DNA from: Candidatus Levyibacteriota bacterium
GTDB taxonomy: Bacteria; Patescibacteriota; Microgenomatia; Levybacterales; UBA12049
Length of the DNA: 64,000 nt
Assembly: GCA_016188975.1 (NCBI GenBank)
Contig: JACPGQ010000008.1
Span: 17,812 to 81,811, forward strand
Reading direction: 5' to 3'
The notes below the pieces were generated by a model. It worked only from the letters and a program-made list of their open reading frames with translations, did not search any database and had not been told where the DNA came from. The position numbers and the translations under genes are program-made. Of the stretch, positions 4,380-50,644 are shown one piece after another; the first letter of the stretch is position 1, and each line of letters opens with the position of its first letter.

Positions 4380-5006
4380 TTACATCAACTCATCCAGTAG
4401 AGGACTAATATCAATATTTTCTAGTGATTGTTTCACAAGCGGCTTTTGCGCAATTTGCGGCGTGCCGTCTTCCCAGGTCGGGCGATCTTCTTTGAAGAAA
4501 ATTCCAGTTGCTACTTTTTCTTTCTCTCCTTCTTTGACTGGTCTCCGGAGTGGCCACTCTTCTGCTCTCTCAAACGCCTGCATCTTATTGGTCATATCAT
4601 GGCCTTGCTCCTGAAGTTTGTAGACTCTCTCATAAAACCAAGCGAATGTGTTGTGGTGATTGAACGTCACACATGGCTGCATGGTGTCTATGATTGAGAA
4701 ACCTTTGTGTTTGATCGCCTCAACGAGTAGCTCCGTCTCCTGTTTGTTATCCCCAGCATACCCCCGAGCGACGAATGTTGCTCCAGCTGAAAGTGCTAGC
4801 TGCATCGCATTGACCGGTGCTTCAACGACCGGCACCGGAGTTGCTTTATTTTTCTCACCAATGTTAGTTGTGGGTGAGAATTGTCCGGTTGTTAATCCAT
4901 ATACCTGATTGTCATGAATAAGAAGTGTCAAATTCACATTTCTCCTGGCTGCATGTAGCCAGTGATTGCCTCCCTCTGCAAATTGATCGCCGTCTCCCCC
5001 AATCAC
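4380..5006 (-). CDS. korB: 2-oxoacid:ferredoxin oxidoreductase beta subunit, C-terminal TPP-binding part. A frameshift separates it from the N-terminal part.
   Basis: GDGD...GGNHWLHAARRNVNLTLLIHDNQVYGLTTGQFSPTT is the canonical TPP-binding region of KorB/PorB. The ORF starts at a GTG embedded in a GTGA overlap with the upstream ORF. Confidence 0.7.
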   Translation of the reverse strand: MIGGDGDQFAEGGNHWLHAARRNVNLTLLIHDNQVYGLTTGQFSPTTNIGEKNKATPVPVVEAPVNAMQLALSAGATFVARGYAGDNKQETELLVEAIKHKGFSIIDTMQPCVTFNHHNTFAWFYERVYKLQEQGHDMTNKMQAFERAEEWPLRRPVKEGEKEKVATGIFFKEDRPTWEDGTPQIAQKPLVKQSLENIDISPLLDELM

Positions 5007-6274
5007 GATAACAGTCCAATCCCCGAGACGAGAACGACCTCCCAGGGCTTCAAATCCAGCTGAACAATAGCGTTCTTCAAAGAAACCCAGATTCCGAAGT
5101 CTCCACAGTTATGGAGGATTGCGTTTTCCGTGACGTATGCGTTTTCTGTATCGACCTCAAGATTGTGTACTGGACCCTTATATCGTTGTTTTTCAATCTT
5201 TCTGATTGGTAAGAATGCAAAGTTTTGGGTAAGTAAGTGCCTTTGCGGTACAAATTCTTGCTCATTATTTACGACCAAACCTAAAATTTCTTTTAACTTA
5301 ATGCAATCTCTAGGGCCATACACCCATATGGAATAGGCCGTCTTGTGCATTCCATGAGCTCCCTGAACAGATACAGTTGGTAGAATTGCCTGTCGTAACA
5401 GTAGCATTTTTACCTGCTCTGTAAGCTTCTTCGAAATAGTCCTCAAGCAAGCACTATGCCTTTTTCTGCTTTTTCCTACCCAGCCGTCACCACGCCACAT
5501 ACCCTTAATAAGTTCTTTCTGCTTTTCTTTGGGCAAAAACATTACAAAATCTGGAATCTTTTTATTTGCAGCCCCTTTTCCAAACCACCCCTCAAACATT
5601 TCTGAGAGATATGATGAATTAAATGAAAGGTCAATCGTCTTTCTCCCTTTTCGGTATCGTTTTATTGAGAAGAGACCAAAAAGCTTCTGCATAATTGCTA
5701 CGACATCCTCTGCATACATTTCTTCTCGGGAATGAAAGGTAAAGTTGATAGATCTTCTATGGACGTACCCCTCCGCTATATAATAGCCTGCCAGCCGGAG
5801 AAATTCCGCTTCCAATGGAACACTTGAGGGTAATCCCTTACTTTTTGTATCTTTCTTCCTTTTTATGAAGGAAATATCTATATGCCCTATATCTTTCTCA
5901 GTTTTCAAAATTGGATATACTAGACGATCGCCTTTTTTAAGTTCTCTTGCCTCGACCCACTGTGATTGGTATTCAAGATTTTTACGTCTTAAATGTTCAT
6001 GTTTTATCGTCAATACAGGATGTTCAGGTGTTAGCGTAGTTTCTCCAAAATATCTTGAAACAAGCCGATACATAATGCCATCATGTATGTGAGATAAAGC
6101 TTCAGTAACTTCATGAGGCATTCCATCGCTACCAATAACTCTATCTCCCGTTTTGAGAGTAGATATCAATGCCGTAGAGGGATTAGTTTGAATATAAGTC
6201 TCTGGTATAGTACATCCTGGGCACCAATTCGGCTTGTCGTAGTCAATTTGTAAATCTTGTAGTGTCGTTGCCAT
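5003..6274 (-). CDS. korB: 2-oxoacid:ferredoxin oxidoreductase beta subunit N-terminal part, carrying a 369-aa LAGLIDADG intein
   Basis: The extein MATTLQDLQIDYDKPNWCPG is followed by an intein (CTIPETY...ENAILHN), then the extein CGDFGIWVSLKNAIVQLDLKPWEVVLVSGIG. Confidence 0.75.
   Translation of the reverse strand: MATTLQDLQIDYDKPNWCPGCTIPETYIQTNPSTALISTLKTGDRVIGSDGMPHEVTEALSHIHDGIMYRLVSRYFGETTLTPEHPVLTIKHEHLRRKNLEYQSQWVEARELKKGDRLVYPILKTEKDIGHIDISFIKRKKDTKSKGLPSSVPLEAEFLRLAGYYIAEGYVHRRSINFTFHSREEMYAEDVVAIMQKLFGLFSIKRYRKGRKTIDLSFNSSYLSEMFEGWFGKGAANKKIPDFVMFLPKEKQKELIKGMWRGDGWVGKSRKRHSACLRTISKKLTEQVKMLLLRQAILPTVSVQGAHGMHKTAYSIWVYGPRDCIKLKEILGLVVNNEQEFVPQRHLLTQNFAFLPIRKIEKQRYKGPVHNLEVDTENAYVTENAILHNCGDFGIWVSLKNAIVQLDLKPWEVVLVSGIGLLS
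5108..6214 (-). other. Intein with a LAGLIDADG homing-endonuclease domain, inserted between WCPG and CGDF of KorB
   Basis: Block A starts with Cys (CTIPETYI). Block B is TPEHPVLT. The two dodecapeptide motifs are LAGYYIAEGYV and MWRGDGWVG. Blocks F/G are VHNLEVDTENAYVTENAILHN, followed by the +1 residue Cys. Confidence 0.8.
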
Positions 6275-6280
6275 AATAAC

Positions 6281-6398
6281 TTTTCCTTGTACCCCTCTCC
6301 TTTTTAGGGGAGGGAATGTCCCGATTAAATCGGGACTAGGGTGAGGTCAACAATAACCTCAGACCGAGCCGATCCTCACTTTCGTGAGGATGACATCA
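6281..6398 (-). repeat. GC-rich multi-hairpin intercistronic element (CCCTCTCC..GGAGAGGG and GTCCCGATT.AATCGGGAC). A second copy is at 8745-8810.
   Basis: About 85% identity to the copy at 8745-8810 over roughly 55 nt. Both lie between cistrons of the same minus-strand operon. Confidence 0.55.
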
Positions 6399-8147
6399 TT
6401 AACCTAACAAAGACCTTACCTTTTCAATTATTTCTTCAGGATAAAATGGCCTCCCATCATATTTTCTTAAGCGATTTTCAAATGTATATCCTGTTTTCTC
6501 TCTGATAAGCCCTTCAAACTGTCCTGTCTTGTTATTTTCAATAACAAGTGTTTTCTTTGCCTTCCCTATCTCCAGCATAAAAGACTCAGCAAGAAACGGC
6601 TCCAGGTACGAAACCTGCAAAAAATTCACTGAGGTATTTTCTTTTTTTAACTGCCGTATTGCATCCAGAATAGCAAATTTTGTTGAGCCGAATGCTACGA
6701 TTGTCAAATTCGCATCAGAATCTCCCAGCAATTTCGGTGCCGAAAACTCGCCTGCAGCAATTGCGACATCGAGTTTTTTAAAACGCTTATCCATCATCTT
6801 GATTCTCATCTCAGATTCTTCATTGTAAAGACCCTTCTCGTCATGCTCATCAGAACCGGAAAGCCCGATTCCTCCTTGTTGTCCAGGCAAACTTCGAGGA
6901 GATATGCCGTCGTCGACAAGTGCATAACGTTTGTAATCTGCTTCTTGAGCCGCTTGCTGATCTGTAAGCAGTTTTCCTCTTTCAATTTTGAATTTTTCAT
7001 TTTGAACTTTGAATTCATCAATCGAAACTGTCGCATGTGATTCATTAATATGCTTATCAACAAGCACAATCACTGGAAGCTGATACTTGTCTGCCAGATT
7101 CAGCGCTTTCATCGTGTCCTCAAATGCTTCGAGCATATCTCCAGGAGCAACAACGATGCGGGGAAAGTCCCCTTGCGCTGCGTGCAGCATAAAACGGAGA
7201 TCTTCTTGCGATGTCCACGTCGGCATTCCCGTCGAAGGTCCCGGCCGCATACCCATGATGATGACAATTGGCGTTTCTGTCTGGGCTGCTAAACCAACAC
7301 CTTCTACCATCAATGAAAATCCTCCTCCCGATGTCGCTACCATGGACCGAGCTCCGGCAAATGACGCCCCAAGTGCCATGTTAATGCCTGCAATCTCATC
7401 CTCTGGTTCTTTAACGACGATATTGTACTTGAGGGCATGAGCAACCAGCGTCGTCATAATGGTATTGATCGGTGTCATCGGGTACATCGCTGCAAACTTA
7501 AGCCCTGCGCGGATTGCACCAAATGCGATTGCCTCTGCACCCCCGATAAGAAGCCTGGTTTGAGAACCAATTGGAATATCCGCGAGAAGTCCCTGTCCGA
7601 AATTCTCAACGACATAATCATATCCCGCTTTTGACGTAGTATTGTTCAATGCAACAACGTCATCCCCTTTTTTGCCAAACGTATCCTCCATAATTTTCTG
7701 GAGAACATCAAACTGTTTGTGGAAAAGCGCCAAAGATGCACCGACTGATACTGTATTAATCATCAGCCGATCAGCACCTACTTTTTTGGTAAGTTCCAGA
7801 AGTGGTACTGGAAACAGTCGAACGGAGACAGGAAACTGCTCAACAGTAAGTTTCAAAGCACTCGGGTCAAAAATGATTGCTGCGCCTTCGGAAAGCTCGT
7901 CTGTATGAAGCTTGACGGTATCAGGGTTCAGTGCAACCAGAATATCGACCGTTTTCTTCTGTGATGTAATTGCTTCATCTGATGCGCGAACGTAATACGC
8001 GTTGTGTCCTCCGCGGATGAGGGACGGGTATTCAACGTAGTCAAAAACGTGCAGGCCAAGACGCGTAAAAATCTTTGACATCATAAAGCCTGTGGTCATG
8101 ATGCCGTACCCTGCCTCACCGCCAATAAGCCACTGCAAGTCAATCAT
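6399..8147 (-). CDS. korA: 2-oxoacid:ferredoxin oxidoreductase alpha subunit with a fused N-terminal gamma domain
   Basis: 582 aa. The N-terminus is gamma-like (GGEAGYGIMTTG) and the alpha domain includes AMYPMTPINTIM and ATSGGGFSLMVEG. Confidence 0.85.
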   Translation of the reverse strand: MIDLQWLIGGEAGYGIMTTGFMMSKIFTRLGLHVFDYVEYPSLIRGGHNAYYVRASDEAITSQKKTVDILVALNPDTVKLHTDELSEGAAIIFDPSALKLTVEQFPVSVRLFPVPLLELTKKVGADRLMINTVSVGASLALFHKQFDVLQKIMEDTFGKKGDDVVALNNTTSKAGYDYVVENFGQGLLADIPIGSQTRLLIGGAEAIAFGAIRAGLKFAAMYPMTPINTIMTTLVAHALKYNIVVKEPEDEIAGINMALGASFAGARSMVATSGGGFSLMVEGVGLAAQTETPIVIIMGMRPGPSTGMPTWTSQEDLRFMLHAAQGDFPRIVVAPGDMLEAFEDTMKALNLADKYQLPVIVLVDKHINESHATVSIDEFKVQNEKFKIERGKLLTDQQAAQEADYKRYALVDDGISPRSLPGQQGGIGLSGSDEHDEKGLYNEESEMRIKMMDKRFKKLDVAIAAGEFSAPKLLGDSDANLTIVAFGSTKFAILDAIRQLKKENTSVNFLQVSYLEPFLAESFMLEIGKAKKTLVIENNKTGQFEGLIREKTGYTFENRLRKYDGRPFYPEEIIEKVRSLLG

Positions 8148-8810: not shown

Positions 8811-9209
8811 TTATCTCAAGCAGTCTTGCAACACTGCCCAGCCGAGTAAAGCGCACTTTCTTCTCGTCTCTGAAAGATCAATTCCAAGCAAATCTAGCAT
8901 ATTCTCCTGAGAAAATTTTGTCAACTCAGTTTTTTTCTTGTCTCTCACAAACTCTGTCAACATTGAGGTAGCTGCAATACTAATCGCACATCCATGTCCA
9001 ACAAACGTAATAGTATGTATCTTGCGCCCTTGGGGTGGACTCGAGGCTCCACCTGCGGAATTTTTCTCAAACCGTATGAACATTTCAATTTCATCACCAC
9101 AAAGGGGGTTGAGTTGTTTTGAGGAAACGTGATATGTTGCCAGCACCCCAAAATTCTGTGGGTTTTTGTAGTGATCTAGTATTTCTTCTTTATAGAGGTA
9201 GCTATCCAT
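8811..9209 (-). CDS. sufU: SUF-type Fe-S cluster scaffold protein (SufU/NifU-like)
   Basis: Three conserved Cys in the contexts NPLCGDE, GHGCAIS and RRKCA. Confidence 0.8.
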   Translation of the reverse strand: MDSYLYKEEILDHYKNPQNFGVLATYHVSSKQLNPLCGDEIEMFIRFEKNSAGGASSPPQGRKIHTITFVGHGCAISIAATSMLTEFVRDKKKTELTKFSQENMLDLLGIDLSETRRKCALLGWAVLQDCLR

Positions 9210-9878: not shown

Positions 9879-11123
9879 TTAACGTACTGAAAAAACACGT
9901 TTCACATCTAAAATTCCTTTCAAAAATGCCTCTATATCCTCTTCATCATTATAAATGTTGAGACTTACCCGAACACTCGCTGGGACACCAAGTTTCTTGT
10001 GAAGTGGCAACGCACAATGGTGTCCAGCACGAACACAAATATTACTCTCTGCGAGAACTTGCGCTACATCATGAGCATGAATACCCGCTAAAGAAAACGA
10101 TATTACACCGCTCCGAACCGTCAAGTCAAGAGGCCCAAATACAATAACTCCCGAAATTGCACATAGTCTCTCAAGCAAATACTCAGTCAATCGCTTTTCA
10201 TGGGTACGAATTGTACCCATTCCAATTGCATTGAGGTAGTCTATTGCTGCGCCCAAACCAATGATTCCCTCAAGCGGCAAGGTTCCTGGTTCAAGTTTTT
10301 CCGGCACATTCTGAAGGGATGATTGAGAGAGAGTAACTTCTTTGATCATCTGACTTCCGTACAAAAGTGGATCTATAGTATTGAGTACATTTTCTCTTCC
10401 CCATATTACTCCCACCCCTGTAGGTGCTAACATTTTGTGACCAGAAAAAACCAAAAAATCACCTGCGCTATCCTGAACATCTACTTTCATATGAGGAACC
10501 GATTGAGCTGCATCGATAACAAGTACCGTGTCTTTTCGTTTTGTTACAAACTTGTTTCGTATTTTTTCAATACTGTTAATTGATCCAAGAACATTTGAAA
10601 CATGCGCAATCGAAATTACACTATAATTATTTGTACTAAGTGATTTATTTATGTTTCTTCCTGCCATAACTTTCTCAGTCACTATACCGCTTCTATCAAT
10701 TTCCAGGAAATCAAGTGGAGCGTTTTGTTGCGTTGTATAGTGTTGCCACGGAATAATATTTGAATGATGCTCCATTTCTGTAAGCAAAACGCCGCGGTTC
10801 TTGGAAAACGTTTTTCTGAGCGATGAAGCAAGGATATTAATCCCTTCTGTTGCACCATGGGTAAAGACAATTTCTTTCTCGTTTTTTGCATTGATAAATT
10901 GTGCCACTTTTTTCCGTACTTCTTCTACCCGCTCCGTAGCCTTCTCAGCGATTGCATAAATCCCTCGATGAATATTCGAATTGTATGATTCATAAAACTC
11001 TGAAACCGCATCAATTACGACTTGAGGTTTTTGACTTGTAGCTGCAGAGTCAAGATACACAAGAGGTTTACCATTCCTTTTTTTTCGAAAAATTGGAAAA
11101 TCTTTCTTATAGTTTCTCATCAC
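9879..11123 (-). CDS. sufS: Cysteine desulfurase SufS (class V aminotransferase fold)
   Basis: PLP-lysine context SGHKMLAPTGVG and active-site loop RAGHHCA. Confidence 0.85.
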   Translation of the reverse strand: MMRNYKKDFPIFRKKRNGKPLVYLDSAATSQKPQVVIDAVSEFYESYNSNIHRGIYAIAEKATERVEEVRKKVAQFINAKNEKEIVFTHGATEGINILASSLRKTFSKNRGVLLTEMEHHSNIIPWQHYTTQQNAPLDFLEIDRSGIVTEKVMAGRNINKSLSTNNYSVISIAHVSNVLGSINSIEKIRNKFVTKRKDTVLVIDAAQSVPHMKVDVQDSAGDFLVFSGHKMLAPTGVGVIWGRENVLNTIDPLLYGSQMIKEVTLSQSSLQNVPEKLEPGTLPLEGIIGLGAAIDYLNAIGMGTIRTHEKRLTEYLLERLCAISGVIVFGPLDLTVRSGVISFSLAGIHAHDVAQVLAESNICVRAGHHCALPLHKKLGVPASVRVSLNIYNDEEDIEAFLKGILDVKRVFSVR

Positions 11124-11144
11124 TCAATAAACGTGTCTGCTGTA

Positions 11145-11765
11145 TTATAAGGTACTATATGATACATATCCGCTACGCGATAATCTTTTCCTCATGATTT
11201 TTTGCTCAGCGTTTGATAAGAAAACCATCATTGTCTCAAAAAAACCAGAGACAATAAGCTCTATTGCTTGTTTTTCTGAAAGTCCTCTGCTTTGCAGATA
11301 AAATAGTTGCTCCTCATCAGGTTTCCCCACCGTTGATGCATGACCAGCCTTTAACTCATTCTCATCAATCTCAAGGGACGGCACACTTTTTCCCTTAGCA
11401 TCGTCAAAGAGCAGTACCTTTGAGGTAAAATACCCATCTGATCCCTTTGCTCCTTTCTGAATCGTGACTAATCCATCATTAGAAAAAGCAGATTTATCCC
11501 TAAAAACGCCACGGAGTATAGTAAGGCTTTTTGTTCTTGGAGCTTTATGAGTAATCTTTGTGTTGAATCCCAAAGTATTATTACCAGTTCCTAAAAACAG
11601 TCCTACAACGGTAACGCTTGCGCCTTCTCCCACCAATTCAACATCAACAATTACCTCGTTCTCTTTATCGTCAACCCAAATAAACGGGAGCATTCGTTTT
11701 TCATTTTTTTTGACTATAACTGATACGTGCTTCATCCATTTTCCAGACAAGGAGTATCCTTGCAA
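11145..11765 (-). CDS. sufD: Short SufD-like Fe-S assembly protein (C-terminal beta-helix core only)
   Basis: GHASTVGKPDEEQLFYLQSRGLSEKQAIELIVSGF is the SufB/SufD C-terminal signature. It is translationally coupled to sufB. Confidence 0.6.
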   Translation of the reverse strand: MQGYSLSGKWMKHVSVIVKKNEKRMLPFIWVDDKENEVIVDVELVGEGASVTVVGLFLGTGNNTLGFNTKITHKAPRTKSLTILRGVFRDKSAFSNDGLVTIQKGAKGSDGYFTSKVLLFDDAKGKSVPSLEIDENELKAGHASTVGKPDEEQLFYLQSRGLSEKQAIELIVSGFFETMMVFLSNAEQKIMRKRLSRSGYVSYSTL

Positions 11766-11767
11766 AG

Positions 11768-13159
11768 TTATCCAACAGACCCAGTCATCTCAAGCTGAAT
11801 TAACCTGTTTAGCTCAACCGCGTATTCCATTGGCAACTCCTTGACAATCGGCTCGACAAATCCGTTGACGATCATTACCTCAGCTTGTGTCTGGGGAATT
11901 CCTCGTGACTGAAAGTAAAACAATTGCTCTTCACCAATTTTTGAGACAGACGCTTCGTGCCCAATCGTAACTCTTTCTTCATCAATAAGCATCGTCGGAT
12001 AGGTATCAGAACGGCTTCTCTCATCAAGAATAAGGGCATCACACCTGACAGTTGACTTACTGTTTTTCGCGCCTTTGTGGATTTTTAACAACCCTCTGTA
12101 AGACGTCCTTCCACCATCTTTACTAATAGATTTTGACGTAATAGCAGAGCTTGTCTCTTGAGCCATATGAATTGCTTTTCCTCCTGCATCCTGATGCTGC
12201 CCGGATCCAGCAAAAGCAAGTGATAGAACCTCCCCTTTTGCTTTTCTTCCTTTGAGGTAGACTGAGGGGTACTTCATCGTCAATTGGCTCCCTAAATTTC
12301 CATCAATCCATTCGCCTATTCCTTCCTCCTCAACAAACATTCGTTTGGTGACTAAGTTGTAGACGTTCTTACTCCAGTTTTGAATCGTGGTATATCTGAC
12401 TCTCGCCCCTTTCTTGACAATTATTTCAACAACTGCTGCATGGAGTGAGTCAGTCGTAAAAATCGGAGCAGTACATCCTTCAACATAATGGACATATGAT
12501 CCCTCATCAGCAATGATCAACGTCCGTTCAAACTGCCCCATATTCCGGGCATTTATTCTGAAATATGCTTGAAGTGGAAGGTCAACGCGTACGCCTTTTG
12601 GTACATAAACAAATGACCCACCCGACCAGACCGCAGTATTCAGCGCGGCAAATTTATTATCAGCAGCAGGAATTACCGTCCCAAAGTTTCGTTGTAAAAG
12701 CTCAGGATACTTCTTCACTGCTGTATCTGTATCCACAAAAATGACACCTTTTTTGGCAAGCATTTTTGAGATGCTGTGATAGATGACCTCTGAATCATAT
12801 TGTGCGCCAACACCTGCAAGAAATTTCCTCTCTGCTTCCGGAATGCCGATTTTATCAAATGTCGTCTTTATTTCTGCGGGCACTTCATCCCACGACCGTC
12901 CCTTCTTATCTGTCGGCCTTACGTAGTAGTAGATATCATCAAAGTTAATTCGAGAGAGGTCTCCTCCCCAACTCGGCATTTGTTTACTGAAAAAAAGCTT
13001 CAGCGCTAAAAGCCTTTTTTGCAACATCCATTCAGGCTCCTGTTTTATTCCTGATATCACCCGAACAATTTTTTCATTAATTCCTTTCGGAGTGGAATAT
13101 ACAGGCTTGATGCTGTCGAAAAATCCAAACTTGTACTCTGAGGGATCAAACTGCTGCAT
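11768..13159 (-). CDS. sufB: Fe-S cluster assembly protein SufB
   Basis: 463 aa. [35 protein letters not shown] and other SufB blocks are present. Confidence 0.85.
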
Positions 13160-27585: not shown

Positions 27586-28203
27586 CTATGGTCGGATAAA
27601 CCTCGATGCTGAGACGACCAGAAATATTCCAGTCGCGTTGAGAAGAAATGAGATGAGGATAAACTGGTATGTTTTCATCTTCGAAATTCCCATGAGGCTT
27701 ATTCCAATTTCATCGGGAAAAGGAGACGCGATAATAAGTGCGCCAATAACAGGAAGCGTCCAACTAAAATATTTTGAATGAAGAATACGCCTAAAATGGT
27801 GGTCTCCATCAATATGCTCATAAAGTGACGCAATCTCCTGCGTGAGGTTATTTTTGATGATGTGAAAAATCGTCACATCTCCCACGACTCCTCCAAGGCC
27901 TGCAATAATGCCTATTTCAACTGGTGATAACCTCTCGGCAAGAATGAGTAAAATGATAGCTCCAGTCGCGACAGTAAAGGTGGAGACGAAAAGCATGCCT
28001 GCGATAAAAGCCCCTATGTAGCCTAACTCTCCTAATCCAAGCAGATAGGAATGGAGCGACTCATTCCGAAAGACAAAAAAAGCGAGAAGGAGTGAGAGGA
28101 AGAAAAACGAAAGATTTTTATATCTCCATGATCTCCAGTAGCTCATACTTTCAGTATAACAGAGACATTCGCTTGTCGATTGTACCCACACAGAAGCTCC
28201 CAA
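27586..28203 (-). CDS. Integral membrane protein, function unknown
   Basis: Multiple TM helices. The real start is possibly at the internal MSYWRSW. Confidence 0.3.
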   Translation of the reverse strand: MGASVWVQSTSECLCYTESMSYWRSWRYKNLSFFFLSLLLAFFVFRNESLHSYLLGLGELGYIGAFIAGMLFVSTFTVATGAIILLILAERLSPVEIGIIAGLGGVVGDVTIFHIIKNNLTQEIASLYEHIDGDHHFRRILHSKYFSWTLPVIGALIIASPFPDEIGISLMGISKMKTYQFILISFLLNATGIFLVVSASRFIRP

Positions 28204-29670
28204 TGTATTTTTCCTAACAGGAGCAGTATAATCCTCTCAGTGGAACAGGCAGTCTGGGATCTCAAATCGCAATGCGAGAACTATCGTAACTCTGAAGTAT
28301 TTGACTGTATGGTTGCAGAGTTTCTGCTGTCATATGGGAAATACTCTCCTGAGCTATGGGACGTTCTTAATCGGTACAAAGTTGAAACACTTGAGGAACT
28401 CAAGAAAAAACAAAGGGGGAAACTTTCTGCACTTCCTAAGCTTCACAGTCTTTTTTCTGATATCGAGATGCCACTTATTCGAGTGCTATGGGAGATGGAG
28501 CGGGAGGGAATACTTCTGGACAGTGACTGCCTGAAAAAAGTTGGACATGGATTGGATGCTGCAATTATGTCTGTTGCGGATGAGATTAAAAAAGAAGTCG
28601 GATTTGACATCAATCTCAACTCTTCTGTGCAAATAGGTAATTTTTTGGCAGAAAAAGTGGGGGTACCTCTTACAAGAACCAAAACCGGCCGCTTTGCGAC
28701 CAATGAAAACGAGATAGCACAGTACGCAGAACAATTTCCCATCATCAAACAACTTTTGACATACCGTGAACTGAGCAAGCTTCGCTCAACCTACGTTGAT
28801 AGCCTGATAACAAAAGTTGACAGGATGGGGCGTGTCCATACGACGTACCATCAAGTAGCGGTAAATACAGGAAGGCTTGCCTCTTCAAATCCAAACATGC
28901 AAAATATCCCTGTCACTTCCGAGTTTGGGCTCAAGATCAAATCCTGTTTTGTTGCAGGACCTCAAAAAAAACTTCTCTCGTTTGACTATTCCCAACAAGA
29001 ATTGCGCATCCTGGCGCATCTGACCGGAGAGGAAAAATTAATCGAGGCATTTCGCGCTGGTAGAGACGTCCATAGAACCACAGCGAGTCAGCTGTTTAAG
29101 GTCGACTATATGGATGTCACAAAGGAGCAACGGATTATTGCCAAGACAATAAATTTTGGCATTATTTATGGCATGAGTAGCTTCGGGATGAGTCAGGGAC
29201 TACACATTCCGGTAGAGGAGGCGCACATGTTTATTGACACGTTTTACCAAACGTATCCGAAAATCAAGACGTATTTCGACAATTATATTAATCGCGGGAA
29301 AATTGATGGGTTTGTCGAAACGCTTTTAGGGAGAAGACGGTATGTTTTTGAGTATCCAGGACAGAAGTTTATCGACAACAACATGCGCCGAGTACTTCTG
29401 AACTTCCCAATCCAAGGATCAGCAGCTGATCTTATGAAAAAAGCGATGGTGCAAATATATTATGATCTTCTTCAAAAAAATCACTCCATCAAATTGCTGC
29501 TGCAAATACATGATGATTTGGTTTTTGAAGTCCAAGACGATAAAGAGAAGATAACATCCATCATTGATCAGATAAAAGAAATAATGTGCAATATCTATCC
29601 ACTCGCAGTTCCGGTTGAGGTTGATGTGAAAATTGGAAAAAATTGGGGAGATATGGAGAAAATTTTATAG
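28180..29670 (+). CDS. polA: DNA polymerase I, polymerase (palm/fingers/thumb) domain only
   Basis: Motif A is DYSQQELRILAH, motif B is RIIAKTINFGIIYGMS, and motif C is QIHDDLVFE. The ORF begins within the tail of the 3'-5' exonuclease domain, with a TTG start at 28180 or ATG at 28309. No 5'-3' exonuclease region is nearby. Confidence 0.8.
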   Translation: MYPHRSSQCIFPNRSSIILSVEQAVWDLKSQCENYRNSEVFDCMVAEFLLSYGKYSPELWDVLNRYKVETLEELKKKQRGKLSALPKLHSLFSDIEMPLIRVLWEMEREGILLDSDCLKKVGHGLDAAIMSVADEIKKEVGFDINLNSSVQIGNFLAEKVGVPLTRTKTGRFATNENEIAQYAEQFPIIKQLLTYRELSKLRSTYVDSLITKVDRMGRVHTTYHQVAVNTGRLASSNPNMQNIPVTSEFGLKIKSCFVAGPQKKLLSFDYSQQELRILAHLTGEEKLIEAFRAGRDVHRTTASQLFKVDYMDVTKEQRIIAKTINFGIIYGMSSFGMSQGLHIPVEEAHMFIDTFYQTYPKIKTYFDNYINRGKIDGFVETLLGRRRYVFEYPGQKFIDNNMRRVLLNFPIQGSAADLMKKAMVQIYYDLLQKNHSIKLLLQIHDDLVFEVQDDKEKITSIIDQIKEIMCNIYPLAVPVEVDVKIGKNWGDMEKIL

Positions 29671-48085: not shown

Positions 48086-49312
48086 TTAAACAAATTTTAG
48101 GCGGTGAGATAACTTTTGCTTTTTAGTAGAAAGGTATCTCTTATTAATTTTGTTTGGTCTTATCTCCAGAGGGATAGTTTTTATAATCTCTATACCAAAG
48201 CTAGTAAGCTGTTTCTCTTTATCTGGATTATTGGTTAACAGATTTATCTTCGTAATCCCTAAATCGTTTAAAATATCTACTGCAATTTTATATTGGCGTG
48301 CATCAACAGGAAAGCCTAGTGATTCATTGGCCTTAACTGTATCATGGCCTTTATCCTGCAGGGCATACGCTCTGATTTTATTAGTCAAACCAATCCCTCT
48401 TCCTTCTTGACTAAGATACAGAATAACGCCGCTACCTTTTTTATTTATCAATTTCGTACTTTGGCGCAATTGCTCTCCACAATCACACCGTAAAGAGGAA
48501 AGTGTATCTCCGGTTAAACACTGGGAATGAATTCTTAAGAGCATAGTATCTTTGAGTTCACCTTTTACTAAAGCTATATGCTCTCTATTATCAATTACTG
48601 ATTTATAAACTATTAACTGAAAATTCCCATAGTTAGTCGGAAGTATAGAAGTAGCAGTTTTAATTATTTCCTTACCCTCTTCAAGTTTGCCTAAAGGATT
48701 CTTCTTCATGTATTTAATCAAATCCTTAATTGAGATTATTTTTATCTTTAGTTTTTGAGATAGTGTAATAAGTTCTGGCAATTTAGCCATATTTCCATCA
48801 CTGCCAACAATTTCACACAAAACCCCTGCTGGTGTAAAATATGCCAGCCTCGCAAGATCAACTGCAGCCTCAGTATGACCATCTCTTTCTAAAACACCAC
48901 CATTTTTTGCCACCAACCCAAAGACGTGGCCTGGACGAGAAAGATCAGAAGGAGTAGATTTAGAATCTGCTAATATATTAATGGTTTTAAACCGATCAAA
49001 GGCAGATACTCCAGTCGTAATACCAATTTTGGCATTAACTGAGACAGTAAAATTAACTTTAGTTTTTTCACTGTTTTCAAAAGGAGCAACCATTAATGGA
49101 AGCTGTAAATTGACTGCTTGCTGTCTAGTGATCGCTGCACAAAGTAAACCCCCTCCAAATTTAATCATTGTTAGAATATATTCAGGAGTTGTTTTATCTA
49201 CAGGGACATAAAAGTCTCCTTCGTTCTCCCTACGAGGGCTATCAACGATGATAAGCATCTTGCCTTGTTTTATATCTTCTATTGCTTCCGTAATGGTGGC
49301 AAAATAATTCAT
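48086..49312 (-). CDS. ribBA: Bifunctional DHBP synthase / GTP cyclohydrolase II RibBA
   Basis: RRENEGDFY (RibB) and the CDCGEQL zinc motif (RibA). Confidence 0.85.
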   Translation of the reverse strand: MNYFATITEAIEDIKQGKMLIIVDSPRRENEGDFYVPVDKTTPEYILTMIKFGGGLLCAAITRQQAVNLQLPLMVAPFENSEKTKVNFTVSVNAKIGITTGVSAFDRFKTINILADSKSTPSDLSRPGHVFGLVAKNGGVLERDGHTEAAVDLARLAYFTPAGVLCEIVGSDGNMAKLPELITLSQKLKIKIISIKDLIKYMKKNPLGKLEEGKEIIKTATSILPTNYGNFQLIVYKSVIDNREHIALVKGELKDTMLLRIHSQCLTGDTLSSLRCDCGEQLRQSTKLINKKGSGVILYLSQEGRGIGLTNKIRAYALQDKGHDTVKANESLGFPVDARQYKIAVDILNDLGITKINLLTNNPDKEKQLTSFGIEIIKTIPLEIRPNKINKRYLSTKKQKLSHRLKFV

Positions 49313-50334: not shown

Positions 50335-50530
50335 AAAAAACCCCGATTTCTCGGGGTGCAAAACTCCACATAAACAATCTGCAGACTTTCCCTTCTTTCA
50401 TCCCGACTATACGGTCGACGCTGGGATATACCAGACTCGTGTCCAACACTTAGGTCAGACTCGTGGGTTTAGAACGTTAAAGCGAAGCTTTTTACGTTCC
50501 TATACCACCGATTAGGATTTCCACCTTGCC
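50335..50530 (-). promoter_or_regulatory. FMN riboswitch (RFN element) with an intrinsic terminator/sequestrator abutting the ribE start
   Basis: On the minus strand: CCUUCGGGGCAAGGUGGAAAUCCUAAUCGGUGGUAUA...GUCUGGUAUAUCCCAGCGUCGACCGUAUAGUCGGGAUGAAAGAAGG. This matches the conserved RFN P1-P6 core (UUCGGGGCAGGGUGAAAUUCCC...GCCGACGGUAUAGUCCGGAUG.GAGAG). It is followed by CACCCCGAGAAAUCGGGGUUUUUU. Confidence 0.8.
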
Positions 50531-50644
50531 CCGAAGGAATGTGCGTTAATTGTACCATAAAAATTCCAGGATTTCTTAAGATTTAATTTTATGCATGCGG
50601 TAGCAAAAATGGATGTTTGATTGATAAATCAATCTTAAAGGTTA

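What the first reader, a model, noticed from the sequence alone, without database searches (positions are those of the whole stretch)
5003..6274. LAGLIDADG intein inserted inside the CPGC iron-sulfur motif of the 2-oxoacid:ferredoxin oxidoreductase beta subunit
The KorB N-terminus runs normally to ...DYDKPNWCPG. Where every KorB/PorB continues CGDFG, a 369-residue insertion begins with Cys (CTIPETYIQT...).

The insertion contains, in order:
- block B TPEHPVLT;
- the dodecapeptide endonuclease motifs LAGYYIAEGYV and MWRGDGWVG;
- blocks F/G ...VHNLEVDTENAYVTENAILHN.

It is followed directly by CGDFGIWVS..., restoring the host sequence. This is a complete, apparently splicing-competent intein with a homing endonuclease. 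It sits exactly on the second cluster-ligating cysteine, which doubles as the +1 nucleophile. Inteins are rare in bacteria and rare in TPP/Fe-S enzymes. That places this one at a functionally critical residue, as is usual for intein insertion sites.
Basis: partly seen in the sequence, partly recalled or inferred. Interest (0 to 1): 0.6.

Follow-up and report, generated by a model that had tools for sequence, protein, structure and literature searches.

The report
KorB intein; host gene broken downstream
A genuine self-splicing intein with a homing endonuclease interrupts the iron-sulfur-binding CPGC motif of an oxoacid:ferredoxin oxidoreductase beta subunit, but the same intein at the same site occurs in hundreds of bacterial and archaeal database sequences, and in this window the host gene carries a 106-base frameshifting deletion just downstream.

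Summary
ORF 5003..6274(-) encodes 20 residues of KorB, then a 369-residue insertion (Cys1 ... His-Asn), then Cys+1-GDFG. Pfam, a confident structure model and fold search all identify a Hint splicing domain enclosing a LAGLIDADG endonuclease. Removing residues 21-389 gives a gap-free match to intein-less KorB.

- **The allele is common.** The same intein at the same site is in 587 protein clusters and in nearly all of the 80 species-representative genomes read (149 matched). These include Levybacteria, Woesebacteria, DPANN archaea, Nitrososphaerota, Bipolaricaulota and Chloroflexota. All 120 nearest extein relatives lack it, as expected of a mobile homing element.
- **The host gene here is not intact.** It lacks 106 nt, which is 35 codons plus one base. 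This removes the third cluster cysteine and shifts the frame between window 5016 and 5015. Six independent assemblies, about 99.9-100% identical across this locus, carry the segment and five called genes there run through the site, four of them to the full 666 aa. The deletion is private to this sequence, either a rare variant or an error.

The most interesting reading is untested. The N-terminal junction is natively Cys(-3)-Pro-Gly-Cys1, the same CPGC motif engineered as an intein redox trap.

Verdict: an ordinary new member of a known kind. Interest is modest.

The parts
6399..8147 (-). korA: alpha subunit of a two-subunit 2-oxoacid:ferredoxin oxidoreductase, 582 aa, intact
   Evidence: Pfam POR_N 7.8e-54 and POR 3.9e-32. 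The identical protein is found on Logan contigs.
6215..6274 (-). korB N-extein, aa 1-20 (MATTLQDLQIDYDKPNWCPG). It ends with Cys(-3)-Pro-Gly.
   Evidence: Cys18 aligns to Cys12b of StOFOR.
5108..6214 (-). Intein, 369 aa (Cys21 to Asn389 of the ORF): a Hint splicing domain split by a LAGLIDADG homing endonuclease domain
   Evidence: Pfam. AF2 model pLDDT 88.4. Foldseek matches TliVMA, PI-SceI and PI-PkoII inteins. Boundaries are fixed by a gap-free alignment to intein-less KorB. GC is 39.0%, against 47.2% in the exteins.
6008..6031 (-). Intein block B, TPEHPVLT (T-x-x-H)
   Evidence: T62, H65 and P66 (intein numbering) are invariant in the family alignment.
5762..5800 (-). First LAGLIDADG motif, LRLAGYYIAEGYV, with catalytic Glu
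   Evidence: G143, Y145, I146, A147, E148 and G149 are invariant in A2. The endonuclease domain matches PI-PkoII 2cw7 at E=1.2e-12.
5474..5512 (-). Second LAGLIDADG motif, LIKGMWRGDGWVG, with catalytic Asp
   Evidence: G238, W240, G242, D243 and G244 are invariant in A2.
5108..5176 (-). Intein blocks F and G, GPVHNLEVDTENAYVTENAILHN, ending in His-Asn
   Evidence: N351, E353, V354, L367, H368 and N369 are invariant.
5016..5107 (-). C-extein, first part: Cys+1 (second cluster ligand), then GDFGIWVS...VSGIG, up to the deletion junction
5015..5016 (-). Deletion junction. 106 nt are missing here: 35 codons (CSSKLPYWVKTYGFNGLHGRPMPVAEGIRLANSGL) plus 1 nt.
   Evidence: All six independent assemblies that span the site carry the segment. 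The missing residues include the Cys that aligns to position 46 of StOFOR b.
4380..5015 (-). C-extein, second part (TVIVIGGDGD...LDELM*), now in a different frame from the first part. It is listed as a separate 208-aa ORF 4380..5006.
   Evidence: Pfam TPP_enzyme_C 9.6e-17 and PFO_beta_C 2.1e-19. NCBIfam PRK11866 1.7e-71.

Best explanation
This is a class 1 intein carrying a LAGLIDADG homing endonuclease. It is inserted in korB, the beta subunit of a two-subunit 2-oxoacid:ferredoxin oxidoreductase, immediately before the second cysteine of the cluster-binding CPGC motif. The host is a Levybacteria-like CPR bacterium.

**Inferred mechanism (from the family's known chemistry, none assayed here)**
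1. Cys1 makes an N-S acyl shift at the Gly20-Cys21 bond, assisted by block B Thr/His.
2. Cys+1, the future cluster ligand, attacks the thioester.
3. Asn389 cyclises, assisted by His388, and releases the intein.
4. An S-N shift restores WCPG-CGDFG.

Only spliced KorB can bind its [4Fe-4S] cluster, because in the precursor the intein separates the two CPGC cysteines by 369 residues.

The endonuclease presumably cuts intein-less korB at the conserved ..TGG TGY CCN GGN TGY GGN GAY TTY GG.. site and spreads by gene conversion. This explains the patchy, cross-domain distribution.

**In this window**
The host gene additionally carries a 106-nt frameshifting deletion 31 codons after the splice site. 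The encoded product is N-extein, intein and a 34-residue stub. The oxidoreductase cannot be made from this sequence as written. The deletion is private to this sequence and is either a rare real variant or a sequence error.
For: **Shown**
- Domain content and fold.
- Exact boundaries: excision of aa 21-389 gives a gap-free 297-aa KorB, 92.6% identical to intein-free P0121.
- Catalytic and endonuclease residues are invariant across the 12 sequences of alignment A2 and at least 90% conserved across 117 family members.
- Same insertion site in 117 of the 120 top hits and in most of the 80 genome loci read. Nearly all have open frames through intein and extein.
- All 120 closest C-extein homologs (66-91% identity) are intein-less proteins of about 294-302 aa, apart from one 225-aa and one 319-aa entry. 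The neighbourhood is syntenic in the empty-site relative L085.
- Intein GC is 39.0%, against 47.2% for the exteins.
- The intein is as similar or more similar than the extein to the archaeal copies: 48-52% against 40-44% for Nitrososphaerota.
- The cluster-ligand role of the CXGC loop comes from PMC5020499 and the alignment.
- The deletion.

**Inferred, not shown**
- That splicing and homing actually occur.
Against: - No experiment was done.
- Pfam Intein_splicing falls 0.7 bit below its gathering score.
- The window's intein departs from the family at four places: Tyr97 to Arg (99% conserved), Arg72 to His, Lys258 to Arg, and a 2-residue insertion at 250-251. The first or last of these could weaken folding or DNA binding.
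- By my own eye alignment to the canonical block F, position F:4 is Asn, not Asp. It is Asn throughout this family.
- Extein and intein identities are correlated (r=0.83). Much of the inheritance within Levybacteria may therefore be vertical with losses, not active homing.
Confidence: 0.9

Rival explanations
1. The intein acts as a natural redox switch, not merely a parasite. In the precursor, Cys(-3)-Pro-Gly-Cys1 forms a disulfide under oxidising conditions. This blocks the first acyl shift, so the oxygen-labile Fe-S enzyme is matured only when the cell is reduced.
For: - The junction is literally CPG+Cys1. It is WC[PA]GC in 117 of the 120 top hits.
- The engineered intein redox trap is made by placing CPG next to the catalytic Cys to give CPGC (PMC10772547).
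- A natural Cys(-3)-Cys1 disulfide controls the P. abyssi MoaA intein in an oxygen-sensitive enzyme (PMC3922620; PMC10663303).
- A related intein in thioredoxin reductase (L083) also has Cys(-3)-x-x-Cys1.
Against: - The CPG context is dictated by the host's own cluster motif. Its presence needs no adaptive explanation.
- Related inteins in IscU have Asn, not Cys, at -3.
- Many hosts are aerobic ammonia oxidisers.
- Nothing was measured.
Confidence: 0.25
2. The whole locus is a decaying pseudogene in this organism. The deletion is real and fixed, the oxidoreductase is lost, and the intein is a relic on its way to degeneration.
For: - A frameshifting 106-nt deletion removes a cluster ligand.
- No repeated k-mer flanks the junction that would explain a graph mis-join. 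Only 1 nt of microhomology is present.
- Four atypical substitutions or insertions occur in the intein.
Against: - All six independent single-sample assemblies of the same population that span the site carry the 106 nt. Their flanks are 99.7-100% identical to the window, and five called genes run through the site in frame, four of them to the full 666 aa.
- Those atypical intein residues are shared with the intact allele: the window ORF and L001 KorB read identically through the intein.
- korA and the rest of korB have no other lesions.
Confidence: 0.2
3. The insertion is not an intein. It would be a native KorB insertion domain, or a free-standing endonuclease gene fused by an annotation or assembly artefact.
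For: The Pfam Intein_splicing score is marginally below threshold.
Against: - The frame is continuous, with Cys1 and His-Asn-Cys+1 at exactly the points where intein-less KorB is contiguous.
- The Hint fold wraps the endonuclease domain in the model and matches solved inteins end to end.
- Hundreds of independent sequences share the architecture.
Confidence: 0.01

Closest known systems
Homing-endonuclease-bearing class 1 inteins with solved structures: TliVMA/PhoVMA (7qsu, 7qst), PI-SceI (1vde), PI-PkoII (2cw7), PI-PfuI (1dq3)
   Same: Hint domain interrupted by a two-motif LAGLIDADG endonuclease. Cys1, block B T-x-x-H, C-terminal His-Asn, nucleophilic +1 residue. Fold match TM 0.76 to 7qsu. 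The endonuclease domain matches PI-PkoII by sequence at E=1.2e-12.
   Different: Only 12-19% sequence identity. The host is a metabolic TPP/Fe-S enzyme, not an ATPase or polymerase. No extra DNA-recognition region of the PI-SceI type is evident at 369 aa.
The KorB/OFOR-beta CPGC-site intein allele present in public genomes, for example Ca. Nitrosotenuis chungbukensis MY2, Ca. Parvarchaeum ARMAN-4/-5 and Ca. Levyibacteriota MAGs
   Same: Same insertion point (WCPG|C...HN|CGDFG), same length class (342-402 aa, median 366), 36-65% identity. Splicing and endonuclease residues are invariant in A2.
   Different: This copy is at most 65% identical to any database cluster representative. It has Y97R, R72H, K258R and a 2-aa insertion. 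Its host gene is broken in this window.
Pyrococcus abyssi MoaA intein and the engineered CPGC redox-trap DnaE inteins
   Same: Cys at -3 and Cys1 spaced as C-x-x-C, here the very CPGC sequence that was engineered. The host is a redox-sensitive Fe-S enzyme.
   Different: No evidence here of a disulfide or of redox-dependent splicing. The motif is imposed by the host's cluster-binding site.
Mycobacterium tuberculosis SufB intein (Fe-S assembly protein)
   Same: An intein in a protein of iron-sulfur metabolism, studied for stress-sensitive splicing (PMC8891592, listed; only its abstract was seen).
   Different: Different host protein, different site, and no sequence relationship was tested here.

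Membership tests
Intein (class 1, canonical four-step splicing) | In-frame insertion whose removal restores a contiguous, conserved host protein | tested here: met
   Excision of aa 21-389 gives a gap-free 297-aa alignment to intein-less KorB, 92.6% identical to P0121.
Intein (class 1, canonical four-step splicing) | Nucleophile at position 1 (Cys/Ser) and at +1 (Cys/Ser/Thr) | tested here: met
   Cys21 and Cys390. C1 is invariant in A2.
Intein (class 1, canonical four-step splicing) | Block B T-x-x-H and C-terminal His-Asn | tested here: met
   TPEH at aa 82-85 and HN at aa 388-389. T62, H65, H368 and N369 are invariant.
Intein (class 1, canonical four-step splicing) | Block F aspartate | tested here: inconclusive
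   By eye alignment to the canonical block F (my own knowledge, not a tool result), the position is Asn (VHNLEV). It is invariant Asn351 in the family.
Intein (class 1, canonical four-step splicing) | Hint fold | tested here: met
   AF2 model pLDDT 88.4. Foldseek matches whole inteins at E down to 3.8e-23. Pfam Intein_splicing E=1.5e-8, but 35.1 bits against a 35.8 cutoff.
Intein (class 1, canonical four-step splicing) | Autocatalytic protein splicing | not testable with these tools
   Needs expression of the precursor. There is indirect support: nearly all of the genome loci read keep the frame open through intein and extein.
LAGLIDADG homing endonuclease (two-motif, monomeric) | Two LAGLIDADG motifs, each with an acidic residue at motif position 8 followed by Gly | tested here: met
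   LAGYYIAEG and IKGMWRGDG. E148 and D243 are invariant. Pfam LAGLIDADG_3 E=1.3e-16 with 2 stretches.
LAGLIDADG homing endonuclease (two-motif, monomeric) | Site-specific cleavage of the intein-less allele, and homing | not testable with these tools
   Indirect only. Distribution is patchy among close relatives, an empty syntenic site exists in L085, and GC is lower than the host gene.
2-oxoacid:ferredoxin oxidoreductase beta subunit (PorB/KorB, TIGR02177) | Full-length match above the curated cutoff, including the TPP-binding domain and the cluster cysteines | tested here: not met
   Window fragments score 26.5 and 205.3 bits against a cutoff of 261.9. The intact allele in L001 scores 310. 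The window lacks 35 residues, including the Cys that aligns to position 46 of StOFOR b.
Redox-trap (disulfide-gated) inteins | Cys in the N-extein positioned to bond with Cys1 (Cys-3) | tested here: met
   C18-P-G-C21. This is the same motif as the engineered CPGC.
Redox-trap (disulfide-gated) inteins | Splicing blocked when oxidised and released on reduction | not testable with these tools
   Requires in vitro or in vivo splicing assays.

The most novel reading that the evidence does not exclude
The KorB intein family is a widespread natural CPGC redox trap. A Cys(-3)-Cys1 disulfide, or a Cys1-Cys+1 disulfide, would hold the precursor unspliced under oxidising conditions. An intein would then gate maturation of a central-metabolism Fe-S enzyme in hundreds of CPR, DPANN and Nitrososphaerota lineages. 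The same intein lineage has also colonised two other redox or Fe-S cysteine motifs: IscU CGD and thioredoxin reductase CxxC.
Probability: 0.2. Interest if true: 0.6.

Novelty: new member of a known kind. Interest (0 to 1): 0.3.

Why it matters
On its own this is one more copy of a common mobile element, and it sits in a host gene that is damaged in this sequence.

It matters slightly more as a pointer. A large intein family, which none of my seven literature searches found described, sits exactly on a [4Fe-4S] ligand. It natively recreates the CPGC motif that protein engineers use as a redox trap.

If splicing proves redox-gated, it would be a second and far more widespread natural example of conditional splicing protecting an oxygen-sensitive enzyme. 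It would also be a ready-made redox-responsive intein for biotechnology.

The deletion also matters for annotation. Metabolic reconstructions from this sequence should not count the oxidoreductase as present without checking the reads.

Tried and rejected
- **Missing 35 residues elsewhere in the window.** tblastn found nothing, so they are not translocated.
- **Deletion allele in other assemblies.** The exact 423-aa and 208-aa products are not on record. A 20-mer scan of JGI metagenome contigs gave only an unrelated high-GC chance hit, L004.
- **The window's own genome among species representatives.** It is absent; the best intein match is 62-63% identical.
- **Repeats that could explain the deletion or a mis-join.** None were found at the junction.
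- **Literature on an OFOR/KorB intein.** Seven searches found no paper that describes one. No supplement of Novikova et al. 2016 was held. Callahan et al. 2011 was not held, so its content is cited through reviews.
- **Other inteins in the window.** Ten of the largest ORFs in the rest of the window showed none.
- **An RNA family in the hairpin-rich korA-korB spacer.** There was only a sub-threshold hit on the opposite strand.
- **Rejected readings.** A native insertion domain, a fused free-standing endonuclease, and a bacterial intein-like domain were all considered. All are excluded by the exact splice-junction residues and the colinear spliced product.
Full report
**1. What is in the sequence**

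ORF 5003..6274 on the minus strand encodes 423 residues. It has three parts:
- MATTLQDLQIDYDKPNWCPG, the normal start of a 2-oxoacid:ferredoxin oxidoreductase beta subunit.
- 369 residues from Cys21 (CTIPETYIQT..) to Asn389 (..TENAILHN).
- Cys390-GDFGIWVS.., which resumes the host sequence.

The alpha subunit lies directly upstream at 6399..8147(-), 582 aa, with POR and POR_N domains.

**2. Is it an intein?**

- Pfam gives LAGLIDADG_3 at E=1.3e-16 in two stretches. Intein_splicing scores E=1.5e-8 at 35.1 bits, just under the 35.8 gathering score.
- NCBIfam matches are to the intein parts of intein-containing Tes, PolII, IF-2, GyrA, RFC, DnaB and RecA models.
- The endonuclease core matches PI-PkoII (2cw7) by sequence at E=1.2e-12.
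- An AlphaFold2 model of the 369 residues, built from a 12-sequence family alignment, is confident: pLDDT 88.4, pTM 0.88. N- and C-terminal beta-strand segments enclose an alpha/beta core.
- Foldseek against the PDB returns whole endonuclease-bearing inteins first: TliVMA 7qsu (E=3.8e-23, TM 0.76), PI-SceI, PhoVMA, PI-PkoII, PI-PfuI. Free-standing LAGLIDADG enzymes such as I-DmoI follow, matching the middle domain only.
- The decisive boundary test is excision. Deleting residues 21-389 from the intact allele gives a 297-residue protein that aligns without a gap to intein-less KorB proteins. The closest, P0121, is 92.6% identical.

**3. Where exactly it sits**

The spliced protein aligns to the S. 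tokodaii OFOR b subunit (5b46_B, E=8.5e-67). Cys18 and Cys21 fall on Cys12 and Cys15. The paper on that structure states that the Cys12b-Cys15b loop is the conserved CXGC motif that ligates the cluster. The loop also forms the ferredoxin interface (PMC5020499). In the precursor the two motif cysteines are separated by 369 residues, so I infer that cluster binding requires splicing.

**4. The host gene is broken here**

The rest of KorB continues in another frame (TVIVIGGDGD.., 5015 down to 4380).

- Alignment with the nearest intein-bearing homologs shows 35 residues missing.
- A Logan contig from SRR12113424 (L001) is 99.94% identical over 5.6 kb. It carries an intact 666-aa gene and 106 extra nucleotides exactly between window 5016 and 5015.
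- Looking up the neighbouring 133-aa protein gave contigs from seven samples. All six that reach the site carry the 106 nt, and their flanks are 99.7-100% identical to the window. Two alleles differ by one SNP.
- The missing segment, CSSKLPYWVKTYGFNGLHGRPMPVAEGIRLANSGL, begins with the Cys that aligns to position 46 of the StOFOR b subunit. From my own knowledge this is the third cluster ligand. The segment also includes the conserved HGR stretch.
- It is not encoded elsewhere in the window.
- The junction has only 1 nt of microhomology and no shared k-mer, so a de Bruijn graph mis-join looks unlikely.

I cannot tell a rare real variant from a consensus error without reads. As written, this sequence cannot make the enzyme. 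Translation would give the N-extein, the intein and a 34-residue stub, which could still splice and release the endonuclease.

**5. How common is it?**

- A search with the ORF found 587 clusters at E<=0.001. Most of the top 120 are 640-700-aa KorB proteins with the architecture TPP_enzyme_C + PFO_beta_C + LAGLIDADG_3 + Intein_splicing.
- 117 of those 120 show WC[PA]G|C...[H/G]N|C at the same site. Intein length is 342-402 aa, median 366.
- In species-representative genomes, 149 matched and 80 were read. Hosts include Ca. Levyibacteriota (the closest, 62-63%), Collierbacteria, Saccharimonadales, Bipolaricaulota, Chloroflexota, Micrarchaeota, Aenigmatarchaeota, Woesearchaeota, ARMAN-4 and -5, Nitrososphaera and the complete genome of Ca. 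Nitrosotenuis chungbukensis MY2.
- Nearly all of these keep the frame open through intein and extein. This argues that the family splices.
- I found no paper describing this allele. It is common in databases but apparently not written up.

**6. Signs of mobility**

- All 120 nearest homologs of the window's C-extein (66-91% identical; those with a source name are Levybacteria, Microgenomates or Patescibacteria) are intein-less, nearly all of 294-302 aa.
- The closest sits in the same korA-korB-small ORF-endonuclease III neighbourhood (L085).
- Intein-bearing relatives are more distant in their exteins, at 72-84%.
- Intein DNA is 39.0% GC, against 47.2% for the exteins and 44.9% for korA.
- Toward Nitrososphaerota the intein is more similar (48-52%) than the extein (40-44%). 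Within Levybacteria it is less similar. Overall r=0.83.
- This fits a mixture of vertical descent, loss and occasional long-range transfer.
- Both LAGLIDADG motifs keep their acidic residue and Gly. These are invariant in the 12-sequence alignment and at least 90% conserved in 117 sequences, which suggests the endonuclease is maintained.
- The window's copy deviates at Tyr97 to Arg (99% conserved site), Arg72 to His, Lys258 to Arg, and a 2-residue insertion. The intact allele shares these changes, so they are not part of the damage.

**7. Mechanism**

Inferred from the family's established chemistry (review PMC10663303), the steps are:
1. N-S acyl shift at Gly20-Cys21.
2. Trans-thioesterification to Cys+1.
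3. Asn389 cyclisation.
4. S-N shift.

None of these was tested here. By my own eye alignment, block F position 4 is Asn, not the usual Asp, throughout this family. This is a minor departure that hundreds of intact host genes evidently tolerate.

**8. The most interesting reading**

The N-terminal junction is natively Cys(-3)-Pro-Gly-Cys1.
- Engineered redox-responsive inteins are made by placing CPG next to the catalytic Cys to create CPGC (PMC10772547).
- The natural P. abyssi MoaA intein uses a Cys(-3)-Cys1 disulfide to hold an oxygen-labile enzyme unspliced until conditions are reducing (PMC3922620; PMC10663303).
- The KorB intein could behave the same way.

The motif is imposed by the host's cluster site, so its presence alone is no evidence of adaptation. 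I give this reading about 0.2-0.25.

**9. Verdict**

- The intein interpretation is correct.
- The claims of rarity and of an intact host are not.
- This is a new member of a known kind, of modest interest.
- It carries an annotation caveat (the 106-nt deletion) and one testable idea (a native CPGC redox trap).

Noticed in passing
window 6275..6398 (-), the korA-korB spacer: The 124-nt spacer folds into four consecutive 6-8 bp hairpins (MFE -55.4 kcal/mol, z=-5.1 against shuffles). No Rfam family matches. The intein-bearing relatives L006 and L007 have no spacer at all. The empty-site relative L085 has a different hairpin-rich 66-nt spacer.
   Followed up: partly
L076, L079-L082 (IscU/NifU-like genes) and L083 (thioredoxin reductase): Inteins 35-38% identical to this one sit in other cysteine motifs: IscU (..GNPV|C...HN|CGDxM..) and the TrxB redox-active CxxC (HYCYT|C...HN|CDGPLY). 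The targets share a P/T-x-C-G/D-D-like context, which suggests ectopic homing between redox and Fe-S genes. The TrxB context again has Cys at -3.
   Followed up: partly
L054, L055, L057-L059, L061, L063, L065, L067, L069, L074, L075, L078; also L070, L071: A second subtype of KorB intein at the same site starts CV(L/T)G(D/E) and ends ..TASGN|CGDFG or ..ACGN|C. Its penultimate residue is Gly, not His. It is found in Micrarchaeota, Nitrososphaerales, Bathyarchaeota and Saccharimonadales.
   Followed up: no
window 8811..9209 (-): The window's own SufU/IscU-like scaffold protein contains NPLCGDE, which resembles the IscU intein target. It carries no intein. It lies in a suf cluster with SufS, SufB-like and SufD-like ORFs at 9879..13159.
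   Followed up: no
window 50386..50542 (-): An FMN riboswitch (RF00050, 79.5 bits) lies upstream of riboflavin biosynthesis genes, including ribBA at 48086..49312.
   Followed up: no
window 28180..29670 (+): The family A DNA polymerase ORF is only 496 aa and has the polymerase domain alone. No 5'-3' or 3'-5' exonuclease domain appears in the same ORF.
   Followed up: no
L072 and L009 (genome loci): Two other genomes show a disrupted reading frame downstream of the KorB intein. L072 has an early stop and a frame change. L009 diverges right after SGIGC. Breakage of this host gene may therefore not be unique to the window.
   Followed up: no
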